This document shows, in pieces, positions 1 through 17,227 of a DNA stretch of 64,000 bases. The notes under the pieces were generated by a model that saw nothing but the letters and a program-made list of their open reading frames with translations, was not told the DNA's origin and ran no database searches. Numbering within the stretch: position 1 is the stretch's first letter; each line of letters begins with the position of its first letter. Source of the DNA: an uncultured Ignavibacteriales bacterium (lineage in GTDB: Bacteria > Zixibacteria > MSB-5A5 > GN15 > FEB-12); contig CAZTBP010000013.1 in assembly GCA_964612145.1 (NCBI GenBank), positions 1-64,000 on the forward strand, given 5' to 3'. The position numbers and the translations under genes are program-made.

Positions 1-15
1 CACCAGGCGGCCTGA

Positions 16-450
16 TTATGAAACAATTTGTCTCATTTCTATTGACACATTCCAGGCGCCCGGGCTATTTGGGTGCTTTGTTCCCGTCCCGTTGCGAATA
101 GTAAAGCCGAGTAGTACCGACGTGCTATCTTCGCCCGCATTGAATGTAACTACGGTACCCGAGTCATTGTGCTGTGGATTGCTGCCATCTATAATCGAGC
201 TATCAATGTGAGCCAAATCTCCGGAGTGTACGAACTCACTGGACAACACGATTCCCTTACCCCGGAAGTGGATGTTTTCGAAATATGTACCGGGTGCAAC
301 CAGCACCGTATCTCCATCCATCGCCGCATCAATGGCAGCTTGTATCGTCGGCTGGTCGGCTGGAACATGAATAGTGGCAGCAGTAGTAAATGAAACGAAA
401 ATGCCCCACGTCAGAAGGCAGATAACAAGACGCATAAACTCTCCCCGCAT
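16..450 (-). CDS. Short secreted protein (144 aa) with a signal peptide and the N-terminal start of a right-handed beta-helix fold. Paralogous to the N-terminus of the 43020..44465 protein. Possibly a truncated gene or pseudogene remnant.
   Basis: Signal peptide MRLVICLLTWGIFVSFTTAA. The motif TIHVPADQPTIQAAIDAAMDGDTVLVAPGTY matches TIRVPADQPNIQAAVDACDGDDTVLIADGIY of the 43020 protein. The ORF stops after 144 aa, whereas the paralog is 481 aa. Confidence 0.4.
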   Translation of the reverse strand: MRGEFMRLVICLLTWGIFVSFTTAATIHVPADQPTIQAAIDAAMDGDTVLVAPGTYFENIHFRGKGIVLSSEFVHSGDLAHIDSSIIDGSNPQHNDSGTVVTFNAGEDSTSVLLGFTIRNGTGTKHPNSPGAWNVSIEMRQIVS

Positions 451-1019
451 GTTTAGATTGGTCGGAACTGCTCCAAGATAACAGAATCGACAGATTTGTC
501 AACGGTCAGATTCCTTGGCTGGATTCCTTGACAGCCGCCCGATTCTGCCCGATATTGCAAGTCCTCAAGGCCCCGCTGGTCCCCCTCCCGTGTGCTCAAG
601 CCCAACCAGCGGGGCCGTCCTTTGCCTGAACGTGGAGACCAGAGGGACTTCGAAGCCGATGTGGAACCTGATCTACCTCTGGTGAGTGCCGCGAATACTC
701 AGTAGAATCGATTGTCGAGAACTTGTCCCGACGGTCCAGGCGGAAATGCAAACTTTGACGTTTGGTCAACAATCTAAGACTTTAGAGTGCAAGTTGTTAG
801 TAAAACGACTGTGCCAGTTCGCCAACTACCAACTACCTGCATAACAACTGAAAAATCACTTGCTATCAGCGACGGGAAAGGCGATATTATGCCTCAGGAA
901 AAGGCTTGTCTTGTGTGCTGGCTCAATCAAAGTGCACTCGCAGGGTAGCCAAACTTTTGATATTCGGGACAATTTCTGCCTTGGTATTGAGGTAGGAGAC
1001 ATTGCCGGAGATACATTGA

Positions 1020-1292
1020 GTGAATGGTGAAGGGACCTTCGTTGCTTTTCTAATCGTGTTCGCGGGTATCCCCCTTATGGGCATGTTCCTGTTGCACTTG
1101 TTATTGGGCGACAAGGCGTATCAAATCTTTAAGGCTCATGCGGCAATTGCCCTTATTCGTTTTTTAGTCCTCGCTCCGATTAAAGTCGTGGCGTACTTTT
1201 TTAAGGTCATATTTGAAGCTTGGGTAAAGTACAAATCGAGCTTTGTTGCGTCGGGAGCTTCGTTTCTGCAGTTCTTGAAAAAGTTAATTTGA
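1020..1292 (+). CDS. Small hydrophobic membrane protein (90 aa), hypothetical
   Basis: ORF with two predicted TM helices in an AT-rich 850-bp otherwise non-coding stretch. No recognisable homology. Confidence 0.2.
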   Translation: MNGEGTFVAFLIVFAGIPLMGMFLLHLLLGDKAYQIFKAHAAIALIRFLVLAPIKVVAYFFKVIFEAWVKYKSSFVASGASFLQFLKKLI

Positions 1293-1314
1293 CTCTATCT
1301 TGTGGAGAAAACGT

Positions 1315-1983
1315 ATGGTAAAGGATAGAACAGTCGATCTGAAGTCCAATAACAAAGAAAAGAAGCACGAGGACAATCCCCATCCCGAAGGCCATGTTGA
1401 TAACATGCCGTCAAACCAAAATAAGGATAATTCCGTTGAGCGTAACAGAAGTAGCGAAGTTCTCGATCTGCTGGAGAAGCTGTACTGCCTTACCGAGAAG
1501 AACCAAACTTCAGTAGCCGCAGTCGCGGCAAATATGGAGCAATCCAGTAAGCAAGGAGACTTGATAAAGAGCTTGTTTGCTAAGGTGGATTCATTAGAAC
1601 GAGATACGGTATTTCGCGACAGAATCCGGCCCGTACTCCTCGACATGATCCGACTTTATGATCGCGTTGAATTGATGTGCGGTGAGATAGCAGAACCTGT
1701 CGCTGATAACGAGGCGCTTAGTGTTCGGTTAAACAGCATTCGGAGCGAGTTATCTCAGATCCTGAAACGAAATGGTGTTGAGGAGCTCGATGTGTTGCAC
1801 AGGCCATTTGATGAATCTTTCAGCGAGGCGGCAGACAAAAAGCGGGTAAACGACCCGGCGTTACATATGAAGACAGTTGAGGTCTTAAGAAAGGCCTTTT
1901 TGTGCCATGGGCGATTGCTTAGACCAGCATTGGTACTGGTCGGCGAGTGCAAACCTGAGAACGGAGATGTGTCGGATGAGTAA
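1315..1983 (+). CDS. grpE: GrpE-like nucleotide exchange factor
   Basis: C-terminal GrpE signatures VNDPALHMKTVEV (DPxxHxA) and RKAFLCHGRLLRPALVLVGE (GYxLxxRxLRPAxVxV). GGAG lies 7 nt upstream of the ATG at 1315. The stop overlaps the Hsp70 start by 8 nt. Confidence 0.6.
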   Translation: MVKDRTVDLKSNNKEKKHEDNPHPEGHVDNMPSNQNKDNSVERNRSSEVLDLLEKLYCLTEKNQTSVAAVAANMEQSSKQGDLIKSLFAKVDSLERDTVFRDRIRPVLLDMIRLYDRVELMCGEIAEPVADNEALSVRLNSIRSELSQILKRNGVEELDVLHRPFDESFSEAADKKRVNDPALHMKTVEVLRKAFLCHGRLLRPALVLVGECKPENGDVSDE

Positions 1984-3502
1984 AGTGCTTGGAATCGATT
2001 TGGGCACAACAAACTGTTGTATGGCGGTTCTGAATGAATATGGTCGGCCCAAAGTGATTACTAACTCTGAAGGGCACAACACTACTCCTTCCGTAGTGCT
2101 ATTTCGGGGCGAGGAGCGAGTCGTTGGTGTACGGGCGAAGCGAGCACGGGTTGCTCAGGCAAATAATGTCGCCATGCTTATGAAGAGGTATATACTCAAA
2201 GAACATTGGCGGTTCATCGGACCTGATGGCAAAGAATACTCTCCTGAAGAGCTGTCCGCTATAGTGCTTCGGAAACTGAAACAGGATGCAGAAAAGGCCC
2301 TCGGTGAAGAAATCAAACAAGCTGTTATAACAGTACCTGCATATTTTGGCGATTTGGAGAGGAATCGAACAAAAGCCGCGGGCGAAATGGCCGGGTTAGA
2401 CGTCCTGCGGATAATAAACGAGCCAACCGCAGCAGCTTTGGCCTATGGGCTCGATCAAGCCGAAAGCGAACAGACAATCCTCGTCTACGATCTGGGTGGG
2501 GGGACATTCGATGTGACGATTATGAAAGTAACCGGTTCAAAAATCCAGGTTATCACATCCGGTGGGAACAAGTCTCTCGGGGGAGCCGATTTCGATCAAG
2601 CGATTGTTGAGCATATGAAGGAGCAGTTCATTGCCACACACCAAGTTGACCCAACCAAGGGGGGCGAGAGTCTAGGCGTTTTACAGGACTTTCTGGATAA
2701 GGCTGAACAAGCCAAATTTGACTTGTCAGCAGATACAGAAACAGATATAAACCTTTCGGCAGAAGGGCAAGTACTTGATCTCAACCTGAATAGGCAAACG
2801 TTTGAGTCTCTTATCGCAAATTACATCGAAGAAACTAAGGGCTATATGGACCAGGCACTAAGCGATGCGAGTATGACCTGGGGCGATATAGACCGCGTAT
2901 TGCTTGTTGGGGGGTCTGTGAGAATACCGGCAGTCAAGAAGATGGTAGAAGAGGCTTCGGGCAAGACAGCTGAAGGTGGAGTCAATCCGGACGAAATCGT
3001 TGCCGAAGGCGCGGCAATTGTCGGGGCTTCTGAGGTAGGTCAAACCATCCGTAAAGAAACTGGAGAAGAGGTGTCGGGGCTCGAAGTAAGAGATGTTACC
3101 GCACACTCGTTCGGCGTCAAAGCAAAAGAAGGGGGAGCACATGTGAACTCGATAATCCTTCCGAAGGACACTTCGATTCCGGCCTCCCGTACGCGAAACT
3201 TCACGACCCCTGAAGATAACCAGACATCAGTGGAGATTATAGTTCTCGAGGGTGAAGAGTTAGACCCCGATCTTTGCGAACAGCTGGGTGCGCTCCATAT
3301 CGAGGGACTTCCGCCTAAACCGAAAGGTGTACCCAAAATCGAAGTAACCATGACTTATACGAGAGAGGCCATCATTCAGGTTACTGCCCGGGAGCTAACC
3401 ACCGGCCTTGAAATCAAGGGTGAAGTAAAGGGGTCAGGACGGACTACAGCTGCAGACATTGCAGCCGTTCAGGGGGATATTGAAAAACTAAAAATCAAAT
3501 AG
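1976..3502 (+). CDS. Hsp70-family ATPase of about 508 aa that lacks the helical lid (HscC-like non-canonical Hsp70)
   Basis: Hsp70 motifs are present: VLGIDLGTTNCCMAV, ITVPAYFGDLERNRTKAAGEMAGLDVLRIINEPTAAALAYG and VYDLGGGTFDVTIM. The protein ends right after the SBD-beta region (about 508 aa versus about 640 for DnaK). The ATG at 1976 gives the canonical N-terminus MSKVLGIDLG. Confidence 0.85.
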   Translation: MSKVLGIDLGTTNCCMAVLNEYGRPKVITNSEGHNTTPSVVLFRGEERVVGVRAKRARVAQANNVAMLMKRYILKEHWRFIGPDGKEYSPEELSAIVLRKLKQDAEKALGEEIKQAVITVPAYFGDLERNRTKAAGEMAGLDVLRIINEPTAAALAYGLDQAESEQTILVYDLGGGTFDVTIMKVTGSKIQVITSGGNKSLGGADFDQAIVEHMKEQFIATHQVDPTKGGESLGVLQDFLDKAEQAKFDLSADTETDINLSAEGQVLDLNLNRQTFESLIANYIEETKGYMDQALSDASMTWGDIDRVLLVGGSVRIPAVKKMVEEASGKTAEGGVNPDEIVAEGAAIVGASEVGQTIRKETGEEVSGLEVRDVTAHSFGVKAKEGGAHVNSIILPKDTSIPASRTRNFTTPEDNQTSVEIIVLEGEELDPDLCEQLGALHIEGLPPKPKGVPKIEVTMTYTREAIIQVTARELTTGLEIKGEVKGSGRTTAADIAAVQGDIEKLKIK

Positions 3503-3518
3503 TGTAAGGCAGACCTAT

Positions 3519-4352
3519 ATGTCGCGTGAGTATCTTCGACGAATCGGTCTTCCGTCATCGGCCACAGAAAAGCAGATCGAAAATCGCATGACCGAACTGA
3601 TTCGCAAGCTGCAGAATAAACTCAATAGCCCTGTTATCTCGCATCGCGATCAAATTGAGAAGGAACTTGAAGAGTTGTTTCAGATTCGTGCCGCTCTGCG
3701 GGTTGGAAATAAAGAGGCTGGGTTGCAAGACGACGAAGAGAATTCTTCGTCCGATGAGAGCCTCGAGATATCTTATGGGGAGTTAACCGAAGGACTGGGA
3801 ATTGAGGAAAACTGTGAACCCTCAACTTCCAATGTTGGCTTGCTAATCGATACCTCTGGTAGCATGTCTGGCACAAAGCTGAAGGATGCCAAAATTGCGC
3901 TGGAGTCCTTTCTGAGTAACCTTGATGGCAACCAGATTATGGTTGGGCTCGCGGAATTTGGCAATACCATAAGTGTGGTTAGTGATCAAACATCCGAATT
4001 GGACCGGGTCAGGTCATCTATTGGCGAGCTTGTTTGTGGTGGAAGCACACCGCTATATGAGACTCTTGAGCTGGCTAGTAGCAAATGGTCATCCTTCTTG
4101 GGACAGAGTTTTTTATTCATTGTCGCGACAGACGGCCATCCTAACGGTTCCACTGAGCGCATTCTATCTCTCGCCGAGGAGATTAAAGAGCGGGGGGTTA
4201 GATTTATTACAATTGGCATCGGTTCCGATGTTAACGTCAAATTTCTGCAGGATTTGGCATCTACTCCAGAGGATTATTACTTTGCAGAGGCTAGTATACA
4301 ATTAGAGAGCATTTATCGACAAATTTCAGATGGGCTTGCGAGTTTAGACTAG
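3519..4352 (+). CDS. von Willebrand factor A (vWA/MIDAS) domain protein with an N-terminal degenerate J-like helical domain
   Basis: MIDAS motif LLIDTSGSMSG plus downstream GGSTPLYETL and ATDGHPNG. Residues 1-60 (EYLRRIGLPSSATEKQIENRMTELIRKL...SHRDQIEKELEELFQIRAAL) resemble J-domain helices II and III, with HRD in place of HPD. Confidence 0.65.
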   Translation: MSREYLRRIGLPSSATEKQIENRMTELIRKLQNKLNSPVISHRDQIEKELEELFQIRAALRVGNKEAGLQDDEENSSSDESLEISYGELTEGLGIEENCEPSTSNVGLLIDTSGSMSGTKLKDAKIALESFLSNLDGNQIMVGLAEFGNTISVVSDQTSELDRVRSSIGELVCGGSTPLYETLELASSKWSSFLGQSFLFIVATDGHPNGSTERILSLAEEIKERGVRFITIGIGSDVNVKFLQDLASTPEDYYFAEASIQLESIYRQISDGLASLD

Positions 4353-4370
4353 ATAAGGGAAACGATCGCT

Positions 4371-6521
4371 ATGGGTAAGTTCATAGACTATTTTGCGGAG
4401 CTCAACGAGGCGAAACTGCAGGGTGTTGGCAAGCTGATTCTGCGGTTAGATGCTAGACAGACAAACTTGGAGATTATAGAGAAGATCAAAATTCGACTAG
4501 GCAATAATCCCAGTAAACAGGCTGAGTATCTGCAGGGGCTTGCTCGAGAAGCTCGACCCATTTTCGAGGATAATAAGAAATACGCGGATTACTTTAAAGC
4601 GTATATTAGTTATGTGATTGAGACAAAGGTTAAAGAGGCACTTCTTGACGGGGAAGTTTCGCAAAAGGAGCTATCGATAATAGTTCAAGCAGCACGTGAG
4701 TTAGGTGAGTCAGATGAAAAGACTATAAAAACAATAAAAGATCTTGTCGAGGATGCGCATGGCATCATTGAAGATCCTCGGTCGGATGGGGGAAGAGAAT
4801 TTAGCACGCCATCCCGCAGTAAGTTCACGGACTATTTTGCTGAGCTAAATGGTGCCAAACTCGCTGGTATTAGCAAGCTGGTTCCAAAGTTGGATGCTAG
4901 ACTTACCAATTTGGAAATTATTGGGAAAATGAAGATTCGATTAGGTAATAATCCTAGTAAGCAAGCTGAGTACTTGCAGGGACTTGCGCGGGAGGCGCGT
5001 CTTATTTTCGAGGACGATAAGAAATACAGGGAGTACTTGATAGCTTACGTTGGATATGTGATTGAGACGAAGGTTCAATGGGCACTCGGCCTGGACGGAA
5101 AAATATCGCAAGAGGAACTGTCTATAATAATCCAGTCGGCACGAGACTTAGGCGTGTCCCATGAAGTTGCTTTAAAGACAATAAAAGTCCTTGTTAAGAA
5201 CGCAGGCGGTACCATTGAAAGCCCTGGGTCTGGGGGGAGAAGAGAATTTGGGAAGCCACCTCCAAAAACTCAGCCACAACCGAAAGCGCCACCGCAGCCT
5301 GGCGCCGGACAGAGGCAGCAATCGGGTGCCGGAGCGGGGTCGTCAACATCCGGTTCAGGAACGACCTTCGGTTTAGACAACTTGACCCCGGTCGAGAAGG
5401 CTAACATAGCCACCAGTATCGCTGGAACGCTTGGATTGCTCTACGTTCTTCTCAAAGTCACCTGGGTACCGCTGAATTGGTGGGGATTGCTGATTCCTGC
5501 GATCGCAGCGATTATCTCTATCAAAAATGCGAATTTGCCCGTGAAGAGGCACGCATGGAGCCTGGTAGCAATTCTATTCTTGTATTTCTGGAATGCTGCT
5601 CTACTATTAGTGCTCCTACCGACTTTTCTCCTTTGGCACTGGAGTCCAGTAATCTTCGCAAAGCTGAAACTGAAGCCGTCATATGTCTGGATTTTGCCCA
5701 TTGTCCTCTGCCTCGGCGTATATTCAACGTCATACGCAGTTAAACGTGTTCCCAGGAGAACCAGTAACATGGGATTTGTACAGCCAGCACCTAAACCTCC
5801 AGTCCAGCAGCAAGCTCCGCGGCAAGAGCGAAATACGCAAAATCGACCGGCGCAGACCAAGCCTGTGCCACAGTCATCCTCGGGCCAGTCACAACCGACT
5901 CAGACACGAAGGTCACAAACCACTTCGCCTCCCACGAACACGGTGAAGACAACAAAACCACCGACAACATCGGTGCCGCCAAAGACACAGGAGCCTAAGC
6001 CCCCAGCGACACGTACTCAGCCGAAGTCGGTTACATATGTATTCAATGCAGACAGCAGTGCATTCGAGCTATACTCGTCCGAGGGGATTCAAGGGACCGG
6101 AATAGTCGTCAACCAGGGTGACAGTATCATTATTGATGTTAGCGATAAGACGACTGTGGTTTGGAGTGAGGGCGAAGACCCGGTTGGGCCGGCCGGTTCG
6201 TCAGCCATCGCGTTGAGTCGAAATAATGGGACGGAGTTTTTAATTCCACAATCGCCATGCGGTGCCGTCATCGGTAGAATCGGTCAGGCAGGCAAGTGGT
6301 TCTGCATTGGACAGAAGTATCGTGCGCAAGCTGATAGAGAGGGCGAGCTTTTCTTGACAATCAATGACCGGCCGAACGGATTTGCTGACAATTTTGGCTT
6401 TTTCGGACTAAGTATAATCGTCAAGAGAAGGGTACCAAAGACTGCCAGCCTATTCGCTCCGGATTCAAAGCACGTCTTCGCGCAGGACGTTGAAATTTAC
6501 GAGATTAGGGGTGCAATTTGA
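4371..6521 (+). CDS. Multidomain membrane protein with 2x TerB-like about 148-aa tandem repeats (cytoplasmic), a PGS-rich linker, 4-5 TM helices, a P/T/Q-rich linker and a C-terminal PA-IL/LecA-like lectin domain
   Basis: Two about 75%-identical repeats, KFIDYFAELN...ELSIIVQAARELGES and KFTDYFAELN...ELSIIIQSARDLGVS. A hydrophobic block lies at aa 340-455. The C-terminus (GDSIIIDVSDKTTVVWSEG...GAVIGRIGQAG...NDRPNGFADNFGFFGLSI) parallels LecA (DVITIVAAGWASYGP...GALVMKIGNSG...NDVPGTYGNNSGSFSV). Confidence 0.6.
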   Translation: MGKFIDYFAELNEAKLQGVGKLILRLDARQTNLEIIEKIKIRLGNNPSKQAEYLQGLAREARPIFEDNKKYADYFKAYISYVIETKVKEALLDGEVSQKELSIIVQAARELGESDEKTIKTIKDLVEDAHGIIEDPRSDGGREFSTPSRSKFTDYFAELNGAKLAGISKLVPKLDARLTNLEIIGKMKIRLGNNPSKQAEYLQGLAREARLIFEDDKKYREYLIAYVGYVIETKVQWALGLDGKISQEELSIIIQSARDLGVSHEVALKTIKVLVKNAGGTIESPGSGGRREFGKPPPKTQPQPKAPPQPGAGQRQQSGAGAGSSTSGSGTTFGLDNLTPVEKANIATSIAGTLGLLYVLLKVTWVPLNWWGLLIPAIAAIISIKNANLPVKRHAWSLVAILFLYFWNAALLLVLLPTFLLWHWSPVIFAKLKLKPSYVWILPIVLCLGVYSTSYAVKRVPRRTSNMGFVQPAPKPPVQQQAPRQERNTQNRPAQTKPVPQSSSGQSQPTQTRRSQTTSPPTNTVKTTKPPTTSVPPKTQEPKPPATRTQPKSVTYVFNADSSAFELYSSEGIQGTGIVVNQGDSIIIDVSDKTTVVWSEGEDPVGPAGSSAIALSRNNGTEFLIPQSPCGAVIGRIGQAGKWFCIGQKYRAQADREGELFLTINDRPNGFADNFGFFGLSIIVKRRVPKTASLFAPDSKHVFAQDVEIYEIRGAI
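4377..5264. repeat. In-frame tandem duplication (2 x 444 bp) that encodes the two TerB-like repeats
   Basis: DNA and protein near-identity between 4377-4820 and 4821-5264. Example pair: gcaataatcccagtaaacaggctgagtatctgcagggg versus gtaataatcctagtaagcaagctgagtacttgcaggga. Confidence 0.8.
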
Positions 6522-6740
6522 TTCGTCAACAGTGACTAAACGTTCACAGTTTTTGACTGGAGTGTTAACGCAGGTGCAAATAGACACCAAATGTCAGTAC
6601 GCAGGGCATTAGATAGGACCTCTTCTCAGACGGAGAACATGTCCCTTTGCGTAACGTCGCACATGACAGATAAAGTCTATGTGCTTGCCACAAAGAAACG
6701 TCGACTGAGTAGATACACATACATCTGGAGGCATGGTCTC

Positions 6741-7937
6741 ATGAAGTACTTACGGGTCTTCGCCCTGTTCTGTCTGGTTCTTTCATACGCTGGATGCGGT
6801 GGTCCTAAAACGCTACGAGCACCAGTTCCTTATGAAAGTCAGAACGAATATACCGTCGATGATGTCATCACGGAAATGGTAACTGAAGCCTGCAGTCGCT
6901 TGCAGACAGAAGGGGCTAAAGGGAGGGTTGCTCTCCTGGACTGCTACAGTGCGTCGGGCAAATCTACCTCCTTGGAGGGCCGCATAAGTAATGTTCTTCT
7001 CGCAAAGTTTAGTGAATGTGCTACATCCGGAAGAACTTCTTTTAGCATTGTTCAGCCTCAAGTTATCGCATCCAATATGGCAGCACTTGATCTGTCGGCT
7101 CGAGCCGCGAATATCAAAAATAACGCTGACACGTGGAAGAGACTGGGGGTCCAAATGGTGGCCTCATGTCGTTGGCTACCGAATCCAAACGAGTCAATCA
7201 AGGTAATCTTTGAGTTTTTCGATGTAAGTTCGGGCGGACGACAAATTTTCACTATTGAGAGAACTCTGGAAAAAGATGACGATCTTCGAAAACTGCTCGG
7301 TGAAAAATTGCCCGGAATGCTCATAGTCGAATCGGAAACCGCCGGGTCGAGGGTGTACGTCGACGGCGAATTTAAGGGCGAGATAACTTCTGATCCGATA
7401 TCATTTGAAGTTCCCTACGGTACACACAGTCTCCGAATTGACCGGTCAGGGCACAAGTCCTTCTCTAAGAGTGTGACGATCGAAGAACGAGAGTCAGAAT
7501 ACCTGAAGGTGAAATTCACGCAGTCGCATCTGGCTCCAATGAATTCCGCCCTCTTGAGTGCGTTACTACCCGGCCTAGCATTGGCGGTCTATGGTCCGGA
7601 AGCTAAGGACAACGTTGCTTCGGCTTCTCACGGCATCGCAGCGGCGTTATTCTACACGGCTGCAATTTGCTGGGTGGTAGATGAAAGCAAAGACGATCCA
7701 TTCTTGACGCGCGACAATGACGACCGGTATAAAACTATCAAGAATATTGAGTTGTACACAGCGCTTGGCGCATATGTGGGCAATATAATTACTGGTTGGT
7801 TCGTTGGTAACGAGTACCGGAAGGAAACAAAAAGGGGGGTAGAGATCATGGCTCAAGAAATTCCGGACAGGCTGATCTTCTATGCAGATCGTAGCCACAA
7901 CGGCGACATGATTTTGAAGGTTGGCCTTAAATTCTAA
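6741..7937 (+). CDS. Lipoprotein with a PEGA domain and a C-terminal hydrophobic region
   Basis: Start at 6741 gives MKYLRVFALFCLVLSYAGCGG, a lipobox. The PEGA motif is LIVESETAGSRVYVDGEFKGEITSDPISFEVPYGTHSLRIDRSGHKSF. TM-like segments follow near aa 300-400 (LLSALLPGLALAVYG, AAALFYTAAICWVV). The 150-nt upstream extension in the ORF track has no support. Confidence 0.55.
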   Translation: MKYLRVFALFCLVLSYAGCGGPKTLRAPVPYESQNEYTVDDVITEMVTEACSRLQTEGAKGRVALLDCYSASGKSTSLEGRISNVLLAKFSECATSGRTSFSIVQPQVIASNMAALDLSARAANIKNNADTWKRLGVQMVASCRWLPNPNESIKVIFEFFDVSSGGRQIFTIERTLEKDDDLRKLLGEKLPGMLIVESETAGSRVYVDGEFKGEITSDPISFEVPYGTHSLRIDRSGHKSFSKSVTIEERESEYLKVKFTQSHLAPMNSALLSALLPGLALAVYGPEAKDNVASASHGIAAALFYTAAICWVVDESKDDPFLTRDNDDRYKTIKNIELYTALGAYVGNIITGWFVGNEYRKETKRGVEIMAQEIPDRLIFYADRSHNGDMILKVGLKF

Positions 7938-7954
7938 AAAAGTAGGTATCAGTA

Positions 7955-8323
7955 ATGAAACACATAGCTCTATTATTGGTATTGGCTCTGATGGCGAGTT
8001 TTCAAGGCTGTGCGAGTATCTTGTCTTCAGACACAGAGGTAGTTGGAGTGGCTAGATTGGAAGGTGCTCCTAGCAATGGTCATGGCGGGATACTTATCAG
8101 TAATGGACACGTAAGCGCCATTTCAGCATCAGACGGTACATTCACCCTATCGGGTCAGGTTCTCAAAGACACTGATTTCGATGTTATATTCTCAAAAGAC
8201 GGATACATATCTCAGGTGGTCAATATCTTCATCGATTATGCACCGGGAGATGATTCGGATGAGGACGATGGTCCCCTCGTAGTAGATGTTGGTACTGTTA
8301 CCTTGCCCTTGCAAAGTAAGTGA
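7955..8323 (+). CDS. Small lipoprotein with a carboxypeptidase-regulatory-like beta-sandwich domain
   Basis: Lipobox MASFQGCAS. The motif GILISNGHVSAISASDGTFTLSGQV resembles CarbopepD_reg. Confidence 0.45.
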   Translation: MKHIALLLVLALMASFQGCASILSSDTEVVGVARLEGAPSNGHGGILISNGHVSAISASDGTFTLSGQVLKDTDFDVIFSKDGYISQVVNIFIDYAPGDDSDEDDGPLVVDVGTVTLPLQSK

Positions 8324-8385
8324 TACTTACGATCTGTGGCATTCAATAGTATTGGTGAAGAGTCAGCTATAATTGGATATCTCCC

Positions 8386-9234
8386 ATGGAGCCAGTAATT
8401 AAGGACCAAGTTCGGTCATGGTCGCAGTTGAGTGCTATTCTGCAGGACGCTCGAGGGGTAGTAGATGCGGCCGGTATGAAGATGTTTTCAAATGGATACT
8501 TTCGTCCCGGGGATTTCAGTGAATTCGTTGTTGGAGCGGACCTTTTTTGTCTCGTTGGTTGGCCGATCAGTCTCCACTTGAATAGTGCGGTTGAGACTAC
8601 CGAGAAGTTTCTCAGGGCAAGTGAGAGTATCGAAAATACAGCTGGTCTAAGAAATGTATTAGCTAATTCGGTCATTCAGAGGTCCAAGGACGAGGATTCG
8701 GGTATTTTAGTGCATTGGAAGTTCATTGTGAATTCAGACAAGAAGTACTATAAGGACCGATATCGACGATACCCCGATGGCGGCTTCCTCCATACAGTCG
8801 ACACGCTTCTGTGGGAAACACACTGCCTATCAATGTGGGCATTGTCATTTTGGTATGATATCGCAGGAGCAGTACCTTCTGGCGACGCAGATCGTATAGC
8901 TGAAATCACCGACCGTCTTCTGGCCCTGATCAATGATCTTTTTCCAGACAAAGTCATCCAGGAAGACGATTCTCTCTTTGGCCTTGGTTTTGACGCTATA
9001 GACTCAGAGTTTATAATGTCAGCACTGGAAGAACACTACACTGGGAAGTCAGCACGGAAGCAGACTACTGAAGCCATGGGAAACTCTCCAACGAGTTCTT
9101 TGACCGAGGCTGAGTGGCTACAGGCAAGCGTAGGAACGTGGCGTGTTGATGGAAGATCAATTGAAGGTACTAAGTTGATGGTAATGCCGCTCTCACAGCT
9201 CGTAAAGTGGGTAGATATTCGAATTGACGGCTGA
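8386..9234 (+). CDS. Hypothetical protein (282 aa)
   Basis: Long ORF with no recognisable motif. It lies in the low-GC island. Confidence 0.4.
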   Translation: MEPVIKDQVRSWSQLSAILQDARGVVDAAGMKMFSNGYFRPGDFSEFVVGADLFCLVGWPISLHLNSAVETTEKFLRASESIENTAGLRNVLANSVIQRSKDEDSGILVHWKFIVNSDKKYYKDRYRRYPDGGFLHTVDTLLWETHCLSMWALSFWYDIAGAVPSGDADRIAEITDRLLALINDLFPDKVIQEDDSLFGLGFDAIDSEFIMSALEEHYTGKSARKQTTEAMGNSPTSSLTEAEWLQASVGTWRVDGRSIEGTKLMVMPLSQLVKWVDIRIDG

Positions 9235-9296
9235 AACTATGAGAGGAATCGAATTTTGTTGAGCAGAATTGTCGTATTTGATTCGGAGGTAAACTC

Positions 9297-9641
9297 GTGA
9301 AGTTAATTATCAAACGGGCTCAAGCCGAGCAGAAAGGGCTCTTTGGAGGGCACAAAGGAATGAAATTTACTCTGTCGTGTCAGGTTGACCTATCGGATGA
9401 AGAGAGAGGACTCCTTGAGAAATACAATGTTGAAGAGCATCCGTTGACGTACAGACAGCAAGATGGAGTAGATGTACCGGCTCTCAGAATCGGCGACTTG
9501 GTGCGTGGAAGAACTTACGAGGTAAACGACGTAAGCACGCTGCTCAATAACGAGGAAGTCATCAAGAATGCCTGTCATGACTTCAAAATGTTGTTAGAAG
9601 TTATGCGCTCCTTCGGGGGTGAGGAAGTAGTCGAAATATAA
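9297..9641 (+). CDS. Hypothetical protein (114 aa)
   Basis: ORF with no recognisable motif. It lies in the island cargo. Confidence 0.35.
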   Translation: MKLIIKRAQAEQKGLFGGHKGMKFTLSCQVDLSDEERGLLEKYNVEEHPLTYRQQDGVDVPALRIGDLVRGRTYEVNDVSTLLNNEEVIKNACHDFKMLLEVMRSFGGEEVVEI

Positions 9642-9674
9642 TAAGTGACTATTGAATTTTAGGGAGAGAAAATT

Positions 9675-9821
9675 ATGGCTGAAAAAGAATGTCCCGTATG
9701 TCATTACTCCGGAAAGTGCCCCAAATGTAATGGTAGGGGTGGTGGATTTACGACTGTTTGCTCCACCTGTAAGGGTACTAAGAAGTGTCCCCGTTGTGAC
9801 GGCAAGGGCGTAATCAAGTAA
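9675..9821 (+). CDS. 48-aa DnaJ-type zinc-finger (4 x CxxC, CxxCxGxG) mini-protein. It is not in the supplied ORF track.
   Basis: My own translation gives MAEKECPVCHYSGKCPKCNGRGGGFTTVCSTCKGTKKCPRCDGKGVIK*. The four CxxC units are CPVC, CPKCNGRG, CSTCKGTK and CPRCDGKG, which match the DnaJ cysteine-rich CxxCxGxG repeat. RBS agggagag lies 8 nt upstream. Confidence 0.55.
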   Translation: MAEKECPVCHYSGKCPKCNGRGGGFTTVCSTCKGTKKCPRCDGKGVIK

Positions 9822-9898
9822 GAGTTGGCTTAAATATAGAACATCTCCGGATTGATGGGTCCGCGTCGTAGCACCGGGGACGGACGAAGGAGTTTGAT

Positions 9899-10612
9899 AT
9901 GGATTTGGCCATTTTAAGAATTCATGCTACCAAAGCAGTCGGATCTCTTGTTGCGGGGGGGATTCGTGGCATTGCTTTCTTTGGTATTTTCGGGATGATA
10001 GTGGGAGGCACGATGTTTTTTGTAATTCAGTCCGTGACCAAACACTCCGATGGAGTCGGGAGTTTCATTCTAATGCTTGCTTGGATCGTGGTAGGACTTC
10101 TTCTTGGTGGATTTATCGGCTTCTTCCGGGGCTTACGTGGCGTCTGTCGACAATCACTGGTCAAGAGTCATTGGGTAAACGACGCGTGCGATAGACTATC
10201 ACGGGAGACAATTGGAAGGCTGCGTTCACCCCAGAAGCAGTCGAATCTACAAGTCGAGCTGAAGGAACTGGTCATGACCTGTCAACAGGAACAGGAGTTG
10301 TCAGATCAGCACGTTAAAAAAGATCGAGCCACCGGCGGTGTTGTCAGGCGAATGGTCGAGCGAATCACTGTTCTCCCCCAATTGGCTGTCCGCAAATGCT
10401 TCACCGACCTGATCAACCAAATGTCCGCAAGTATAGAATCTGACGCTGCGCTGTCAGCGCTCGTTGACCGGTTCCCCGAGGAGTTGAAGAGCCGCACGAA
10501 TTCACTTATCGACGCCTGGATTAAACAAATCTTTGCAAGGCCACTAGGAATAGCATACGTAGTTACTGGATGTGCGGTAGTCCTATTGGCTATCCTGACC
10601 GTCTTGATCTGA
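9899..10612 (+). CDS. Membrane protein, hypothetical (237 aa)
   Basis: Two N-terminal and one C-terminal TM helices. No other motif. Confidence 0.4.
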   Translation: MDLAILRIHATKAVGSLVAGGIRGIAFFGIFGMIVGGTMFFVIQSVTKHSDGVGSFILMLAWIVVGLLLGGFIGFFRGLRGVCRQSLVKSHWVNDACDRLSRETIGRLRSPQKQSNLQVELKELVMTCQQEQELSDQHVKKDRATGGVVRRMVERITVLPQLAVRKCFTDLINQMSASIESDAALSALVDRFPEELKSRTNSLIDAWIKQIFARPLGIAYVVTGCAVVLLAILTVLI

Positions 10613-10708
10613 TGTTATTTACACTCTCGTTTGTGCAATATTCCTAAGCAGCATTTAAGGTCCATAAAGGTACCAACACCCATATATATAGACACCAATT
10701 TGTGAATT

Positions 10709-11821
10709 CTAAACTTCTCCACCCCCTTCTTCAAACGGCAGTTTCTCCACCGCATTCGCCAGGTGATCCGGGCCGAGGTGGGCGTAGATCATGGTCGTTT
10801 CTATATCCGAGTGGCCCATCAGCTTCTGAACCGTTGGGAGATCGACGCCCTGCATTACCAAGTGGCTCGCGAACGTGTGGCGAAGCGTATGGACTTTCGT
10901 GAACTCCCCGATCTCGGCCTTCTTGGCGATTTTAATGAGCTCCATCCGGAGATAGTTGTGCATGTTCTTCCCTGACGACTTCACCGGAAAGACATAATCG
11001 TTCTTCGAACGGCCGTCTCGCTTCCGATGCAAGTCGGTAAGGAGCTTCAGGAGGCCATCGCTGATCGGGATGTCCCTCTCCCCCGTCTTCGGCCGCCAGT
11101 CCTTCTTCCGACGGATACTGATCTGTCGCCGCTCAAGATCGATATCGGCCCAGGTGAGATTCTCAAGCTCCGCTTTCCGCATGCCTGTATGAAGAAATGT
11201 ATAGTAGATCGGGTAGAGATTCGGCGGGCAGACGTCAAGGAACCTCCTGCATTCATTGACGGACAGAAATCGAGGCGTCTGATTTTCATCTACCTTCAGC
11301 TTCGCCACACCCTTGGTCGGATTCTCTCGAATGTATCCCCACTTGATCGCCAGGTTGAAAATTAGCCGAAGCGTATCGAGCTCAAAATTCACTGTACGCG
11401 ACTTGGCCACCTTGGGCGACCTACCCCCATTGGCATCTTCCTCGACGGCAGGACTACCGCCGTTGGCGTTCTTCCGAAACACCTTGTACTTGTCGATGAC
11501 CTCGGTCGAGACATCGGAAACATATCTGACCTTCGGCGAGGACTGGAGGAACTCCCGGAAATGATCAATCACCGCCCGATAACGGTCTGTCGTCGTCTTA
11601 CGGTGAGTAGCCTGGCTGTACTCAAGGTAGGAATCAAGAAAGTCGGTCAGCGGCATCTTGGCCTGGCCAAAACCATGCTCTTCTTTGGCAATCTTGACCT
11701 CGGCTTCCTTGAGAGCCAGCTCGGCCACTTTCTTCACCGGCCCGATTCGTCGGCGCACCCTGCGCCCATCGACCCGAATATCAAGATACCAGACTTTGCC
11801 GCGCTTATAGATTTCGCCCAT
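10709..11821 (-). CDS. int: Tyrosine site-specific recombinase / phage-type integrase
   Basis: C-terminal catalytic box [39 protein letters not shown] (R...HxxR...Y). An N-terminal SAM-like/AP2 region is present. The gene sits immediately 3' of tRNA-Leu. Confidence 0.9.
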
Positions 11822-11931
11822 ATCGACGTCTCCCCTTGGTCACAAGTTGGTCACAGCCCTGTTTTCCAAGAAGGAACGAAAGACTTAAGTCGTTGTCAAG
11901 TGGGAAGTTGAATCGGAGGGGAAAATCTAAA

Positions 11932-12015
11932 TGCCGAAGGGGGGATTCGAACCCCCACATCCTTACGGATACTGCGCCCTGAACGCAGCGCGTCTACCTG
12001 TTTCACCACTTCGGC
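11932..12015 (-). tRNA. tRNA-Leu (anticodon CAG), class II with a long variable arm
   Basis: Reverse complement reads GCCGAAGTGGTGAAACAGGTAGACGCGCTGCGTTCAGGGCGCAGTATCCGTAAGGATGTGGGGGTTCGAATCCCCCCTTCGGCA. The acceptor stem is GCCGAAG/CTTCGGC. The anticodon stem-loop is CTGCG-TTCAGGG-CGCAG. The T-arm is GGGGGTTCGAATCCCCC. Confidence 0.85.
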
Positions 12016-12164
12016 ATTCATAACGACTCCGGGGAAACACCGCAATTGCTGCCAATCACGCCCTTCCCTCGGGCCGCCGAGGCCGGTGAACCGCCTCGGT
12101 AGTCGCCAATATATACGCTCTGGCTCGTAACGCAACAGCAATTTTCAAGGCCGGAACAACAGAT

Positions 12165-14477: not shown

Positions 14478-14769
14478 AGTGGCTTGTCCCGTCCAGGGGC
14501 TGCTTGCAGTATCCTGATTGTTAATTTTGCCATTAGCTTGGGAAATGATAGGCTTGCCGATTGGCAGGTGTCAACAATCTTCCGGTCAAAAAGTCGTAAA
14601 CCCTTTAGAAAATGTATTGAATTGTCCAGCGTCGGGCGCTATGTTAACTTTCATAAGTCGACCGAAATTGTGCCTCTCCTGAGGCGAAGAGTGTTACGTA
14701 TCATTCAGCAAACCGGGCATTGAGCAATGGGACGGGGCCTATCTCAGTTGCTATAGTTGCTCATGGAGC

Positions 14770-16035
14770 GTGCGCATGTCAGCTTTTCTCGAAGCACTTA
14801 CCTCACATGACTCCCCAAAAAACCGAGCCCCCGCTCGACCAGCTATCTCACGTCGCGATCTGGCGGCCGTGCTGCTGCTTTCAGTCGTTTTAGCGGCGGT
14901 TTCGTACTTCGTCAACCAATACGACGGGGCCTATCTTATCCGATCCGATGCCGTATGGGAAAATAATCTCGAGTTTCACCAAACCTATCATCCCTTTGCA
15001 ACTCGAGTTTTCACTACTACTTTGATGCAGATCGGACATGAGCAATTTGGTCTCAGGCTCGTGACGGCATTCGCCATTATCCAGTATTCACTATTCATTG
15101 TTCTCGGTCCGTTATGTTTCGTCTTCCTTCGCCACGCGGGCCTTCGGCGGTCCAGCAGCTACCTCGGTGTTCTGGTTATGCTTACTGCTTATCCGATACT
15201 CGCCGCCTTTCATATGCCCATTTACACATGGGACGACTTCTGGATGTATGGCGCCATAATGCTGACGTTTACGCTTGCTTTTCGGGCCCGCCTTATCATA
15301 GCGAGCCTCGTCTTCGGTGTGGGAATCCTCGCACGAGACCCTATTATATTGTTTTATCCCATTCTGGTACTTGCTGTCTGCCAGTCGCCGGGCAGCCGAG
15401 CCACGAAGATTATTGCGGCACTTAGCCCGCTGGTCATATATTTCGTATTCATCATTTTCGCAATGGAGCCACCTGATCAGGCGCGCTGGATGAATTTCAG
15501 CAAAAACTTCCTCAAACCCGATTGGGCAAAGAATACCGCATTCTCTTTCGTCGCCGGGATGGGGATATTGTGGTTGTCCGCGCCAGTGGCTGGTGTTCGG
15601 CTCGGTCAAACCCTCCTGCGTCTGAATATCCCGCGTTTGATCCTCATTGGAGCTGCCTTCATCACGCCGCTCACAGTATTGACGGCCCTAACCATGGGGT
15701 TGGCCCGAGAAACCCGATTATTCTTCCCACCAGTCTTCTTTGCCCTCCCACTATCACTTTACCTGCTTGAATATTATACGCGATTCCATAAAAAGCCCCG
15801 GTCTTGGCTTCTAGCGGCTGGACTTGCGGCAATGGGAGCATCGGCCTGGCTTGGCATCCAAATTGCGCGATTCGTCTTTCCCCAACTCGAAGGACGTACC
15901 TGGCCGGCGTTCTTCCAGGCACATCTTGGAGTAAACATAGGTCTGGGAATTTGCTTCTTACTTTTTGTGATCTATCGGATTGTTCGAACAACGCCGCGAC
16001 TGCAGAAACCATCCTCCAGCAAGTACGTTCAGTAA
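14770..16035 (+). CDS. Polytopic membrane protein (421 aa), hypothetical
   Basis: More than 10 predicted TM helices. Adjacent to other envelope genes. Confidence 0.5.
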   Translation: MRMSAFLEALTSHDSPKNRAPARPAISRRDLAAVLLLSVVLAAVSYFVNQYDGAYLIRSDAVWENNLEFHQTYHPFATRVFTTTLMQIGHEQFGLRLVTAFAIIQYSLFIVLGPLCFVFLRHAGLRRSSSYLGVLVMLTAYPILAAFHMPIYTWDDFWMYGAIMLTFTLAFRARLIIASLVFGVGILARDPIILFYPILVLAVCQSPGSRATKIIAALSPLVIYFVFIIFAMEPPDQARWMNFSKNFLKPDWAKNTAFSFVAGMGILWLSAPVAGVRLGQTLLRLNIPRLILIGAAFITPLTVLTALTMGLARETRLFFPPVFFALPLSLYLLEYYTRFHKKPRSWLLAAGLAAMGASAWLGIQIARFVFPQLEGRTWPAFFQAHLGVNIGLGICFLLFVIYRIVRTTPRLQKPSSSKYVQ

Positions 16036-16122
16036 GACAACCCTCGTGCGCGGTTCACAGCATTGCGCACTTCCGTTTCAAAATTACGTGACAGATGCCC
16101 TGACCCCTTTATATTGATCAGC

Positions 16123-17205: not shown

Positions 17206-17227
17206 TTCACTATCGATTCACTTGTGT

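What the first reader, a model, noticed from the sequence alone, without database searches (positions are those of the whole stretch)
3519..3700. J-domain-like N-terminus with HRD replacing the catalytic HPD, fused to a vWA domain
Residues 3-60 of the vWA protein align by eye to J-domain helices II and III (xYLRRIGLPSSATEKQIENRMTELIRKL ... SHRD QIEKELEELFQIRAAL, versus DYYEILGV...KAYRKLAMKYHPD...AEEKFKEI.EAYEVL). The invariant HPD tripeptide is replaced by HRD. That may abolish or alter Hsp70 ATPase stimulation. A regulated or pseudo-J adaptor that delivers vWA-bound clients to the adjacent lidless Hsp70 is one possibility.
Basis: inference. Interest (0 to 1): 0.55.

Follow-up and report, generated by a model that had tools for sequence, protein, structure and literature searches.

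The report
HPD-less J domain tethering vWA to Hsp70
The first 67 residues of this vWA protein are a real but highly diverged J domain that has lost the catalytic HPD motif; it belongs to a bacterial family always encoded beside a short, lid-less, remodelled Hsp70, which suggests a private chaperone circuit rather than ordinary protein folding.

Summary
ORF 3519-4352 (277 aa) has an N-terminal helical domain (aa 1-67), an acidic linker and a vWA domain with a complete MIDAS motif. It sits in a tight grpE-hsp70-vWA operon.

J-domain homology is real. A 3-sequence profile hits only J domains at the top of the PDB (E 6e-4). A 45-member family profile hits 53 J domains and nothing else (best E 1.3e-15).

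"HRD replaces HPD" is wrong in register. HPD aligns with Q32-N33-K34. H42-R43-D44 lies across a 5-residue loop insertion, at the start of helix III. H42 is not conserved, and R43 is nearly invariant in the family.

None of the 45 family domains has HPD. They are fused to vWA, TPR, RHS, WD40 or AAA+ modules. In all nine loci with context they lie beside a short Hsp70, usually with GrpE.

These Hsp70s keep the catalytic residues. They lack the helical lid, have a remodelled J-binding face (E206, E217, D477) and have changed the VLLL linker. The closest vWA relatives elsewhere are Hsp70-vWA fusions.

Best reading: a co-evolved docking adaptor that couples a MIDAS vWA module to a dedicated Hsp70. 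I rate it a new variant of a known kind.

The parts
1300..1983 (+). GrpE-like nucleotide exchange factor. It is the first gene of the operon and overlaps the hsp70 start by 8 nt.
   Evidence: Pfam GrpE E 3e-14, aa 99-215. Many NCBIfam GrpE models hit it.
1976..3502 (+). DnaK-type Hsp70 of 508 aa. It has the NBD, SBD-beta and the start of helix A, but no helical lid. Its J-binding face and interdomain linker are remodelled.
   Evidence: Pfam HSP70 E 3e-140 to profile position 517/599, and NCBIfam DnaK 1-513/625. Catalytic D8, K70, P143, E171 and T199 are kept. E206 is K, E217 is Q, D477 is T, Q378 is V, the linker VLLLD is LEVRD, and there is a ~14-aa insertion before the linker.
3519..3719 (+). 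HPD-less J-like domain, aa 1-67 (helix I 2-8, helix II 17-35, loop 36-42, helix III 43-67). Helix IV is degenerate in this copy.
   Evidence: Profile hits to PDB J domains, hhalign 90%, leave-out family HMM 58.9 bits, and AF2 pLDDT 82.6.
3612..3620 (+). Q32-N33-K34, the positional equivalent of H33-P34-D35 of DnaJ.
   Evidence: HMMER and hhalign alignments. Q32 is invariant in the 11 J-vWA orthologues.
3624..3632 (+). N36-S37-P38, the family 'NSP' loop motif. It opens a 5-residue insertion relative to canonical J domains.
   Evidence: Family alignment consensus ..Q.r.NSPd...RqeAE.
3642..3650 (+). H42 is variable, R43 is nearly invariant in the family, and D44 sits in a Q/E/D column. The tripeptide is at the N-cap of helix III.
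   Evidence: (R29 and R43 are the only columns conserved at 90% or more).
3720..3830 (+). Acidic, Ser-rich linker (aa 68-104). It is variable among orthologues.
   Evidence: Read from the sequence. AF2 pLDDT is below 50 from aa 68. The alignment is gapped here.
3831..4352 (+). vWA domain with a complete MIDAS motif (D111-x-S113-x-S115, T177, D205). The coordinates run to the stop codon.
   Evidence: Pfam VWA E 1e-18. The MIDAS residues are invariant in 11 orthologues.
4371..6521 (+). 716-aa membrane protein. It has two tandem ~134-aa cytoplasmic repeats, each starting with a probable second type of HPD-less J-like domain (aa 1-81 and 149-229) followed by a TerB/DjlA-like helical piece. About 4-5 TM helices follow (aa ~343-460), then a P/T/Q-rich spacer and a PA-IL lectin-like C-terminus (aa 571-686).
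   Evidence: hhalign gives 85% against J domains and 89% against the J-like family. The PDB sequence search was not convincing. Homologues follow the J-vWA gene in L001, L002, L008 and L009.
6591..7937 (+). PEGA-domain envelope protein. An internal lipoprotein-like signal (MKYLRVFALFCLVLSYAGC) suggests a later start.
   Evidence: Pfam PEGA E 9e-11. A PEGA-like end also occurs on the J-like membrane protein of the Hsp70-vWA fusion locus L013.
10709..11821 (-). Tyrosine integrase bounding the low-GC segment that carries the operon.
   Evidence: Pfam Phage_integrase E 7e-33.
11931..12016 (-). tRNA-Leu(CAG). Its 3' end faces the integrase, so it is the probable integration site.
   Evidence: ARAGORN. 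GC is 0.46-0.49 for 1-10 kb against about 0.55 beyond.

Best explanation
Residues 1-67 form a diverged class-C J domain that has lost HPD. I propose that it works as a dedicated docking module.

Proposed mechanism:
- The J-like domain binds the lid-less DnaK-type Hsp70 encoded two genes upstream. It binds at the usual junction of NBD, linker and SBD-beta, through a rewired interface. The conserved hot-spot is now the Arg pair R29/R43 and the Q-x-x-x-N-S-P loop, in place of H-P-D.
- On the Hsp70 side, the acidic J-binding patch and the hydrophobic VLLL linker have changed in step.
- The acidic linker then presents the MIDAS-competent vWA domain as the partner-binding arm, much as vWA proteins serve MoxR-type AAA+ ATPases.
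- The ATP/GrpE cycle of the Hsp70 would thereby control assembly, remodelling or release of a membrane-proximal complex. That complex would include the downstream 716-aa membrane lectin protein, which probably carries two further J-like domains, and the PEGA protein.

Shown here:
- J-domain homology and loss of HPD.
- Family membership.
- Obligate synteny with short Hsp70s, usually with GrpE.
- Remodelling of the Hsp70 interface.
- Hsp70-vWA fusions in relatives.

Inferred:
- Physical docking.
- The nature of the interface.
- The effect on ATPase activity.
- The cellular role.
For: (1) Homology. J domains top the PDB list with the 3-sequence profile. The 45-sequence profile gives E 1.3e-15 and hits only J domains. 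32 of 45 members hit Pfam DnaJ on their own. hhalign gives 90%. The leave-out score is 58.9 bits against at most 12.1 for 5000 shuffles.

(2) HPD is absent from the helix II-III loop of all 45 domains. The only columns conserved at 90% or more are R29 and R43, which flank the hairpin tip.

(3) Synteny. All nine loci with context have a short Hsp70 0-3 genes away: the window, L001, L002, L005, L008, L009, L089, L090 and L091. L008, L089, L090 and L091 were found through the J-like domain alone. GrpE is present in six of the nine.

(4) No canonical J domain was found in the window, and it encodes only one Hsp70.

(5) The partner Hsp70s keep D8, K70, P143, E171 and T199. They differ from canonical DnaKs exactly at the published J contacts E206, E217, D477 and Q378, and in the linker (VLLLD becomes LEVRD, LKVRD, INVQD and similar, with an insertion before it). 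All lack the lid. The contact list comes from PMC8215388.

(6) The two J-like subtypes (L-Q-x3-N and W-x2-R-x-N) track two Hsp70 clades.

(7) Rosetta stone. The closest vWA relatives in 185k genomes are Hsp70-vWA fusion proteins, followed by GrpE, a second Hsp70 and an HPD-less J-like membrane protein.

(8) The MIDAS residues are invariant.
Against: - No physical or biochemical data exist.
- The window copy is among the most diverged members. It has no Pfam hit on its own and a degenerate helix IV.
- H33Q and D35N abolish J function in every canonical system tested (PMC8215388), so the domain may bind without stimulating, or not bind at all.
- I found no simple residue-by-residue covariation across the roughly nine J/Hsp70 pairs.
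- R167 of the Hsp70 is retained in the window but not in several relatives.
- The family members were collected with a profile seeded on this protein, so the leave-out test is not fully independent.
Confidence: 0.6

Rival explanations
1. Homotypic or heterotypic adaptor, in the manner of Tim16/Pam16 or an effector-associated domain. The HPD-less J-like domains of the vWA protein and of the membrane protein bind each other to assemble a complex. In related loci the RHS, TPR, WD40 and AAA+ proteins would take part in the same way. The Hsp70 acts on that assembly through its substrate-binding domain rather than by docking the J-like domain on its NBD.
Against: No canonical HPD partner domain exists in any of the loci. 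The Hsp70 J-binding face and linker are specifically remodelled, which is hard to explain if the J-like domain never touches them. J-like subtypes co-segregate with Hsp70 clades.
Confidence: 0.2
2. Decayed relic. The domain descends from a J domain but no longer has any Hsp70-related role, and serves only as a helical N-terminal extension of a vWA protein.
For: HPD is lost. The window copy is undetectable by Pfam alone. Helix IV is degenerate.
Against: R29, Q32, N36 and R43 are conserved across orthologues that share 32-64% identity. The family has 40 representatives at E<=1e-3 among 1.84 billion proteins. Synteny with Hsp70 is invariable.
Confidence: 0.1
3. Ordinary co-chaperone. A functional J domain recruits the housekeeping DnaK to vWA-bound clients.
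For: It shows J-domain homology.
Against: There is no HPD in any register. The H position holds Q, the classic null substitution (PMC8215388). The basic helix-II residues R22, K26 and R27 are E21, T25 and E26 here. A dedicated Hsp70 and GrpE are encoded in the same operon.
Confidence: 0.04
4. Chance resemblance of a generic helical hairpin or coiled coil to J domains.
For: Structure searches do not discriminate. Single-sequence Pfam search is negative.
Against: The profile E-values are 6e-4 and 1.3e-15, with exclusively J-domain hits and full-length alignment. The best of 5000 shuffles scores 12.1 bits against 58.9 observed.
Confidence: 0.02

Closest known systems
Class C J-domain proteins (Pfam PF00226), for example E. 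coli DjlA (TerB + J) and DjlB/DjlC with HscC
   Same: It has the same fold and detectable sequence homology over helices I-III. The domain is N-terminal and is joined by a flexible linker to a targeting domain. It pairs with a specialised, shortened Hsp70, as DjlC does with HscC. The neighbouring membrane protein combines J-like and TerB-like pieces, as DjlA does.
   Different: HPD, or the HPE of DjlB/DjlC, is entirely absent and the position reads Q-N-K. There is a 5-residue loop insertion carrying an NSP motif. The helix-II basic face is not conserved. The partner Hsp70 lacks the lid altogether and keeps GrpE, whereas HscC is thought not to use GrpE (PMC8215388).
Eukaryotic HPD-less J-like proteins (Tim16/Pam16, DNAJB13)
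   Same: They have a J fold without HPD and act as regulators or structural partners in an Hsp70 machine.
   Different: Tim16 works by pairing with the true J protein Tim14, and no HPD partner is encoded here. There is no specific sequence relationship. This case is bacterial, fused to vWA, and its Hsp70 is itself remodelled.
MoxR AAA+ / vWA chaperone-adaptor pairs and the MoxR-vWA 'ternary' conflict systems (Kaur et al. 2020, PMC7159879)
   Same: A MIDAS vWA protein is encoded next to an ATP-driven chaperone. Variable effector or sensor modules are attached through small adaptor domains. The vWA here scores best against chelatase-D/CobT-type vWA domains, which partner AAA+ ATPases.
   Different: The ATPase is an Hsp70 with GrpE, not a MoxR AAA+. 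Coupling is through a J-like domain, or by direct fusion to the Hsp70 in relatives.
GAP1-N2 GTPase-centric systems, Hsp70/GrpE/DnaJ theme (Kaur et al. 2020)
   Same: They contain Hsp70 + GrpE + DnaJ-domain or TPR proteins in membrane-proximal neighbourhoods that also feature PEGA and vWA domains.
   Different: Pfam detected no GAP1-N2 GTPase or FNIII-repeat protein in the window operon. That paper does not report loss of HPD or of the lid.
Myxococcus xanthus StkA (540-aa non-heat-shock Hsp70 regulating exopolysaccharide)
   Same: It is a short, non-housekeeping bacterial Hsp70 used as a regulator of a cell-surface process (PMC4319316).
   Different: Its operon partners are different (SCP2-like StkB and StkC). 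No vWA or J-like partner is described.

Membership tests
J domain (PF00226) | Sequence-profile similarity across helices I-III/IV | tested here: met
   PDB profile searches give E 6e-4 with 3 sequences and 1.3e-15 with 45 sequences, and only J domains are hit. hhalign gives 90%. The window copy alone is below detection.
J domain (PF00226) | Helix II-loop-helix III hairpin with a short helix I and helix IV | tested here: inconclusive
J domain (PF00226) | Invariant HPD tripeptide at the end of helix II | tested here: not met
   The aligned position is Q32-N33-K34. None of the 45 family domains has HPD or HPE in the loop.
J domain (PF00226) | Stimulates the ATPase of a partner Hsp70 | not testable with these tools
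   This needs an in-vitro ATPase assay with the 1976-3502 product.
J domain (PF00226) | Functional or genetic association with an Hsp70 | tested here: met
   An Hsp70 is adjacent in all nine loci with context.
Tim16-type pseudo-J regulator | Pairs with a bona fide HPD J domain encoded or acting alongside it | tested here: not met
   No canonical J domain was found in the window or in any related locus scanned.
vWA / MIDAS domain | DxSxS ... T ... D metal-ion-dependent adhesion site | tested here: met
   D111, S113, S115, T177 and D205 are invariant in 11 orthologues. Pfam VWA E 1e-18.
Canonical DnaK-type Hsp70 (the partner) | NBD catalytic residues (D8, K70, E171, T199) and SBD-beta | tested here: met
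Canonical DnaK-type Hsp70 (the partner) | Helical lid (SBD-alpha), hydrophobic VLLL linker and acidic J-binding patch E206/E217/D477 | tested here: not met
   The protein ends at about DnaK model position 513/625. The linker is LEVRD. E206 is K, E217 is Q and D477 is T.
MoxR-vWA ternary conflict system | MoxR-type AAA+ ATPase gene next to the vWA gene | tested here: not met
   Pfam and NCBIfam scans of the operon genes show GrpE and Hsp70 and no AAA+.
GAP1-N2 GTPase-centric system (Hsp70 theme) | GAP1-N2 GTPase(s) and an FNIII-repeat protein in the neighbourhood | tested here: not met
   No GTPase or FNIII hit in ORFs 1-10.7 kb. Four small ORFs without any hit leave some room for doubt.
Known anti-phage defence systems (PADLOC 2.0) | A significant match of any operon protein to a defence-system model | tested here: not met
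   Only a weak Hsp70 hit to PDC-M61B (E 0.0045). Relatives gave nothing specific.

The most novel reading that the evidence does not exclude
The operon is a member of an undescribed class of Hsp70-centred, membrane-proximal conflict or toxin-deployment systems, analogous to the MoxR-vWA ternary systems. In this reading the HPD-less J domain has been repurposed as an effector-associated adaptor. It plugs interchangeable modules (vWA, RHS toxins, TPR, WD40, AAA+) into a lid-less Hsp70 whose allosteric linker has been rewired, so Hsp70 ATPase control would work without HPD.
Probability: 0.35. Interest if true: 0.8.

Novelty: new variant of a known kind. Interest (0 to 1): 0.62.

Why it matters
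HPD is treated as the defining and indispensable feature of J domains. Large surveys discard sequences that lack it (PMC10410713).

A coherent bacterial family has replaced HPD while staying locked to its own GrpE and lid-less Hsp70. That Hsp70 has changed its J-contact residues and its VLLL linker. The pair is a natural experiment on Hsp70 allostery: it asks whether ATP hydrolysis can be triggered, or deliberately not triggered, through a different interface.

The work also links vWA/MIDAS adaptors to Hsp70 in the way they are linked to MoxR AAA+ ATPases. This happens both through the J-like tether and through outright Hsp70-vWA fusions.

The same adaptor occurs on RHS toxins, and the window's operon lies on a low-GC segment bounded by an integrase next to a tRNA gene. 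Both points hint at a role in biological conflict or cell-surface remodelling.

An orthogonal J/Hsp70 pair could also be useful as an engineering part.

Tried and rejected
- Single-sequence Pfam and NCBIfam scans of aa 1-74 gave no DnaJ hit at E<=1. This was rejected as evidence against homology once profiles were available.
- I first thought of a simple charge swap between helix II and the Hsp70 acidic patch. It holds for the window pair (E21/E26 against K206/Q217), but the family keeps a basic residue at the R22 position. I report it only as remodelling.
- A PDB search with a profile of the downstream protein's N-terminal repeats was unconvincing. It gave one J hit at E 0.1 among noise, and the family HMM does not hit these repeats. 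Only hhalign supports J-likeness (67%, rising to 85-89% with more sequences).
- A search for a second att copy of the tRNA-Leu 3' end found none in the window.
- The promoter and terminator scan was uninformative.
- PADLOC found no known defence system.
- Plasmid and phage collections matched only the vWA part, or nothing.
- The genome scan did not recover the source genome.
- Literature searches found no description of this system. Barriot et al. 2020 is not held.
- The last word-indexed protein search with the family profile returned only 6 proteins.
Full report
**1. What is at the coordinates**

ORF 3519-4352 (+) encodes 277 aa. Residues 1-60 read MSREYLRRIGLPSSATEKQIENRMTELIRKLQNKLNSPVISHRDQIEKELEELFQIRAAL. 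H42-R43-D44 lies at nt 3642-3650.

- Pfam places a vWA domain at aa 105-267 (E 1e-18).
- The MIDAS residues D111, S113, S115, T177 and D205 are all present.
- The gene sits in a tightly packed co-directional cluster:
  - a GrpE-like gene at 1300-1983 (Pfam GrpE 3e-14);
  - an Hsp70 at 1976-3502, whose start overlaps the grpE stop;
  - the vWA gene, 17 nt after the hsp70 stop;
  - a 716-aa membrane protein at 4371-6521, 19 nt further on;
  - a PEGA-domain protein at 6591-7937.
- The Hsp70 matches DnaK models only to position ~513 of 625 and Pfam HSP70 to 517 of 599. It therefore stops just after the beta-sandwich and lacks the helical lid.

**2. Is the N-terminus a J domain?**

On its own, aa 1-74 gives no DnaJ hit at E<=1. 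Only two proteins in the 5.8-billion-sequence collection share the whole architecture closely: P0002 (64% identity) and P0003 (40%).

- A profile of these three N-termini, searched against all PDB sequences, places J domains at the top. T. thermophilus DnaJ2 scores E 6e-4, DNAJB8 0.009 and E. coli DnaJ 0.06. The alignments cover aa 3-67 against J-domain residues 4-63.
- An exhaustive HMMER search of 1.84 billion representatives with the same 3-sequence profile found 40 proteins at E<=1e-3.
- I extracted 45 domains from these and from related loci.
  - Their profile hits 53 PDB sequences at E<=1e-3. All 53 are J domains, and the best scores E 1.3e-15.
  - 32 of the 45 hit Pfam DnaJ individually, the best at 7.7e-12.
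- The window copy scores 58.9 bits against a family HMM built without it and its two close relatives. The best of 5000 shuffles of its sequence scores 12.1 bits.
- AF2 with the 43-sequence alignment gives pLDDT 82.6 and helices at 2-8, 17-35 and 43-67.

**3. Where HPD should be**

Every profile alignment pairs H33-P34-D35 of DnaJ with Q32-N33-K34 of the window protein, and DnaJ N37 with N36.

- A five-residue insertion follows (S37-S41; the family motif is 'NSP').
- H42-R43-D44 then aligns with the residues just before helix III of canonical J domains.
- In the AF2 model, HRD is the N-cap of helix III, at the far end of the loop from where HPD sits.
- H42 is D and T in the two closest homologues, and the column is variable across the family.
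- R43 is one of only two columns conserved at 90% or more. The other is R29.

- None of the 45 domains has HPD or HPE in the loop.
- In the vWA/RHS subtype the motif is R-x-[LVI]-Q-x-x-x-N. Q32 is invariant in the 11 J-vWA orthologues.
- H33Q is the classic substitution that abolishes J function in every system tested (PMC8215388).
- A second subtype reads R-x-W-x-x-R-x-N.

**4. The family and its neighbourhoods**

The same domain is fused to varied partners:

- vWA in 8 of 36 representatives;
- TPR plus TM segments in 9;
- giant RHS/YD-repeat proteins in 3 (for example P0144, 1521 aa);
- WD40, Sel1 or AAA+ modules;
- it also occurs alone or in tandem.

Every locus with usable context has a short Hsp70 0-3 genes away.

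- *Window:* GrpE, then Hsp70, then J-vWA.
- *L001 and L002:* Hsp70 immediately upstream. The contigs are truncated further up.
- *L005 (Thermoflavimicrobium dichotomicum):* GrpE, a 507-aa Hsp70, then J-like-TPR.
- *L008:* ABC ATPase, TPR, GrpE, Hsp70, a 277-aa J-vWA, a 276-aa membrane protein, then J-like-RHS.
- *L009 (Spirochaetales):* the same order through the 290-aa protein.
- *L089:* J-like-TPR, a 506-aa Hsp70, then GrpE.
- *L090:* a 504-aa Hsp70, J-like-AAA+, WD40, then J-like-WD40.
- *L091:* GrpE, a 509-aa Hsp70, a 583-aa protein, then a tandem J-like protein.

L008, L089, L090 and L091 were reached through the J-like domain alone, so their Hsp70 linkage is an independent observation. 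Neither the window nor the related loci I scanned contain a canonical J domain, and the window has only one Hsp70.

**5. The Hsp70 partner has changed in step**

I aligned the system Hsp70s with E. coli DnaK and canonical DnaKs.

- They retain D8, K70, P143, E171 and T199, so they should still hydrolyse ATP.
- They differ from all canonical sequences at the published J-domain contacts (PMC8215388):
  - E206 becomes K, K, R, R, N, R or Q;
  - E217 becomes Q, Q, R, V, F, V, D or T;
  - D477 becomes T, G, E, K, R, S, A or L;
  - Q378 is often V, Y, I or L.
- The hydrophobic linker VLLLD becomes an alternating pattern: LEVRD in the window, and LKVRD, INVQD, VRIKD, VEIRD and similar elsewhere. An 8-25-residue insertion precedes it.
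- R167, the partner of D35, is kept in the window but is G, K, A or S in several relatives.
- A rough NJ tree places these Hsp70s outside the tight canonical DnaK clade. They fall in two groups that match the two J-like subtypes.

Both sides of the canonical J-Hsp70 interface have therefore been rebuilt. This argues for a private, co-evolving pair.

**6. Rosetta-stone fusions**

I scanned one genome per species (185k species) with the J-vWA alignment. The closest vWA relatives, at 33-40% identity, lie in Latescibacterota, Deltaproteobacteria, Myxococcota and Nitrospirota. They are the C-terminal domains of Hsp70-vWA fusion proteins.

- In L013 the fusion is 666 aa, with Pfam HSP70 at 5-475 and VWA at 498-647.
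- It is followed by GrpE, a second Hsp70 and a 591-aa protein.
- That 591-aa protein carries HPD-less J-like domains (…RYRWARTLKD…), TM segments and a PEGA-like end.

The vWA thus takes the place of the lid in cis, which supports a physical Hsp70-vWA partnership. In the window the J-like domain would supply that partnership in trans.

**7. The rest of the operon and its setting**

The 716-aa protein begins with two ~134-aa repeats that are 71% identical.

- Each repeat starts with a 'DYFAEL…' domain. With seven homologues this domain aligns full-length to J domains (hhalign 85%) and to the J-like family (89%), again without HPD.
- A PDB sequence search and the family HMM do not confirm this, so I call it probable.
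- A weak DjlA/TerB-like match follows. Then come 4-5 TM helices and a PA-IL lectin-like end.
- Homologues of this protein follow the J-vWA gene in L001, L002, L008 and L009.

The cluster lies in a segment with GC 0.46-0.49, against about 0.55 for the rest of the window. The segment is bounded by a tyrosine integrase at 10709-11821 that abuts the 3' end of tRNA-Leu(CAG) at 11931-12016. The second att copy is not in the window. This looks like an integrated island.

**8. Mechanism**

Most likely (0.6), the J-like domain docks the vWA protein on the cognate lid-less Hsp70 at the usual NBD-linker-SBD-beta junction, through a rewired interface. The conserved hot-spot is still at the hairpin tip (R29, Q32, N36-S37-P38, R43). 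The MIDAS vWA binds a partner or client, and the ATP/GrpE cycle drives remodelling or assembly of a membrane-proximal complex.

Whether hydrolysis is stimulated, unaffected or inhibited is open.

The rivals are:

- homotypic pairing in the manner of Tim16 or an effector-associated domain (0.2);
- a functionless relic (0.1);
- an ordinary DnaK co-chaperone (0.04);
- chance resemblance (0.02).

**9. Comparison with what is known, and novelty**

It fails the defining HPD test for a canonical J domain but is a clear homologue.

- It resembles Tim16/DNAJB13-type J-like proteins in lacking HPD, but it has no HPD partner.
- It resembles DjlC-HscC in pairing a class-C J protein with a shortened Hsp70, but here the lid is absent and GrpE is retained.
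- At system level it parallels MoxR-vWA pairs and the Hsp70/GrpE/DnaJ theme of GAP1-N2 systems (PMC7159879). It lacks their MoxR ATPase or GTPase and FNIII components.

Public annotation calls a relative a 'DnaJ domain-containing protein'. I found no paper describing the HPD-less family, its lid-less Hsp70 partner or the Hsp70-vWA fusions. A large survey of J-domain proteins explicitly removed sequences without HPD (PMC10410713). Barriot et al. 2020 could not be consulted.

I rate it a new variant of a known kind, with interest 0.62.

Noticed in passing
window 1-12016: The grpE-hsp70-vWA cluster lies in a low-GC segment (0.46-0.49, against about 0.55 for 12-64 kb). The segment ends at a tyrosine integrase (10709-11821, minus strand) abutting the 3' end of tRNA-Leu(CAG) (11931-12016). 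This is probably an integrated island whose other end lies outside the window. No second copy of the tRNA 3' end was found.
   Followed up: partly
window 4371-6521: The 716-aa protein has two tandem ~134-aa repeats (71% identical). Each has a 'DYFAEL' domain that aligns to J domains without HPD, followed by a piece with a weak DjlA/TerB-like match. Then come 4-5 TM helices, a P/T/Q-rich spacer and a PA-IL (LecA-type) lectin-like C-terminus.
   Followed up: partly
L010-L022, e.g. L013:1856-3856: Hsp70-vWA fusion proteins (~660-730 aa, with the vWA in place of the lid) occur in Latescibacterota, Deltaproteobacteria, Myxococcota, Nitrospirota and others. Each is followed by GrpE, a second short Hsp70 and a membrane protein with HPD-less J-like domains ('RYRWAR[STG]L[KR]D') and a PEGA-like end.
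   Followed up: partly
L008:10001-14566 (P0144); also P0154 and P0146: Giant RHS/YD-repeat proteins, typical of polymorphic toxins, carry the same HPD-less J-like domain at their N-terminus. In L008 the RHS gene lies in the same operon as GrpE, Hsp70 and J-vWA. This would be an unusual N-terminal 'trafficking' domain for an RHS protein.
   Followed up: no
L008:2250-5828 and L009:3682-7366: A tandem-ABC ATPase and a ~610-aa TPR protein precede GrpE-Hsp70-J-vWA in two unrelated genomes. The window lacks them. The L008 ATPase scores E 1e-50 against the PADLOC 'mad3' model, which may only reflect general ABC-ATPase similarity.
   Followed up: no
L090:1-9230: This variant system has a DUF87/HerA-like ATPase, a 504-aa Hsp70, a J-like domain fused to a double AAA+ (IetA/TRIP13-like PADLOC hits), a WD40 protein and a J-like-WD40 protein.
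   Followed up: no
L005:5841-20000: In Thermoflavimicrobium dichotomicum the GrpE / lid-less Hsp70 / J-like-TPR module sits between a HATPase_c_3 (MORC-like) protein and a Tad/Flp-type pilus cluster (CpaE-like, prepilin peptidase, T2SSE, T2SSF).
   Followed up: no
window 7955-10612: Four ORFs lie between the PEGA gene and the integrase: a 122-aa lipoprotein-like protein, a 282-aa protein, a 114-aa protein and a 237-aa TM protein. None has a Pfam or PADLOC match.
   Followed up: partly
window 6591-7937: The longest ORF of the PEGA protein probably starts too early. An internal Met followed by LRVFALFCLVLSYAGC looks like a lipoprotein signal peptide, which suggests a start near nt 6741.
   Followed up: no
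window 12165-19712: Beyond the tRNA the genes look like core envelope functions: an AftA-like arabinofuranosyltransferase (12165-14477, minus strand), a glucuronyl C5-epimerase-like protein (16063-17094) and an HtrA-type protease with two PDZ domains (18189-19712, minus strand).
   Followed up: no
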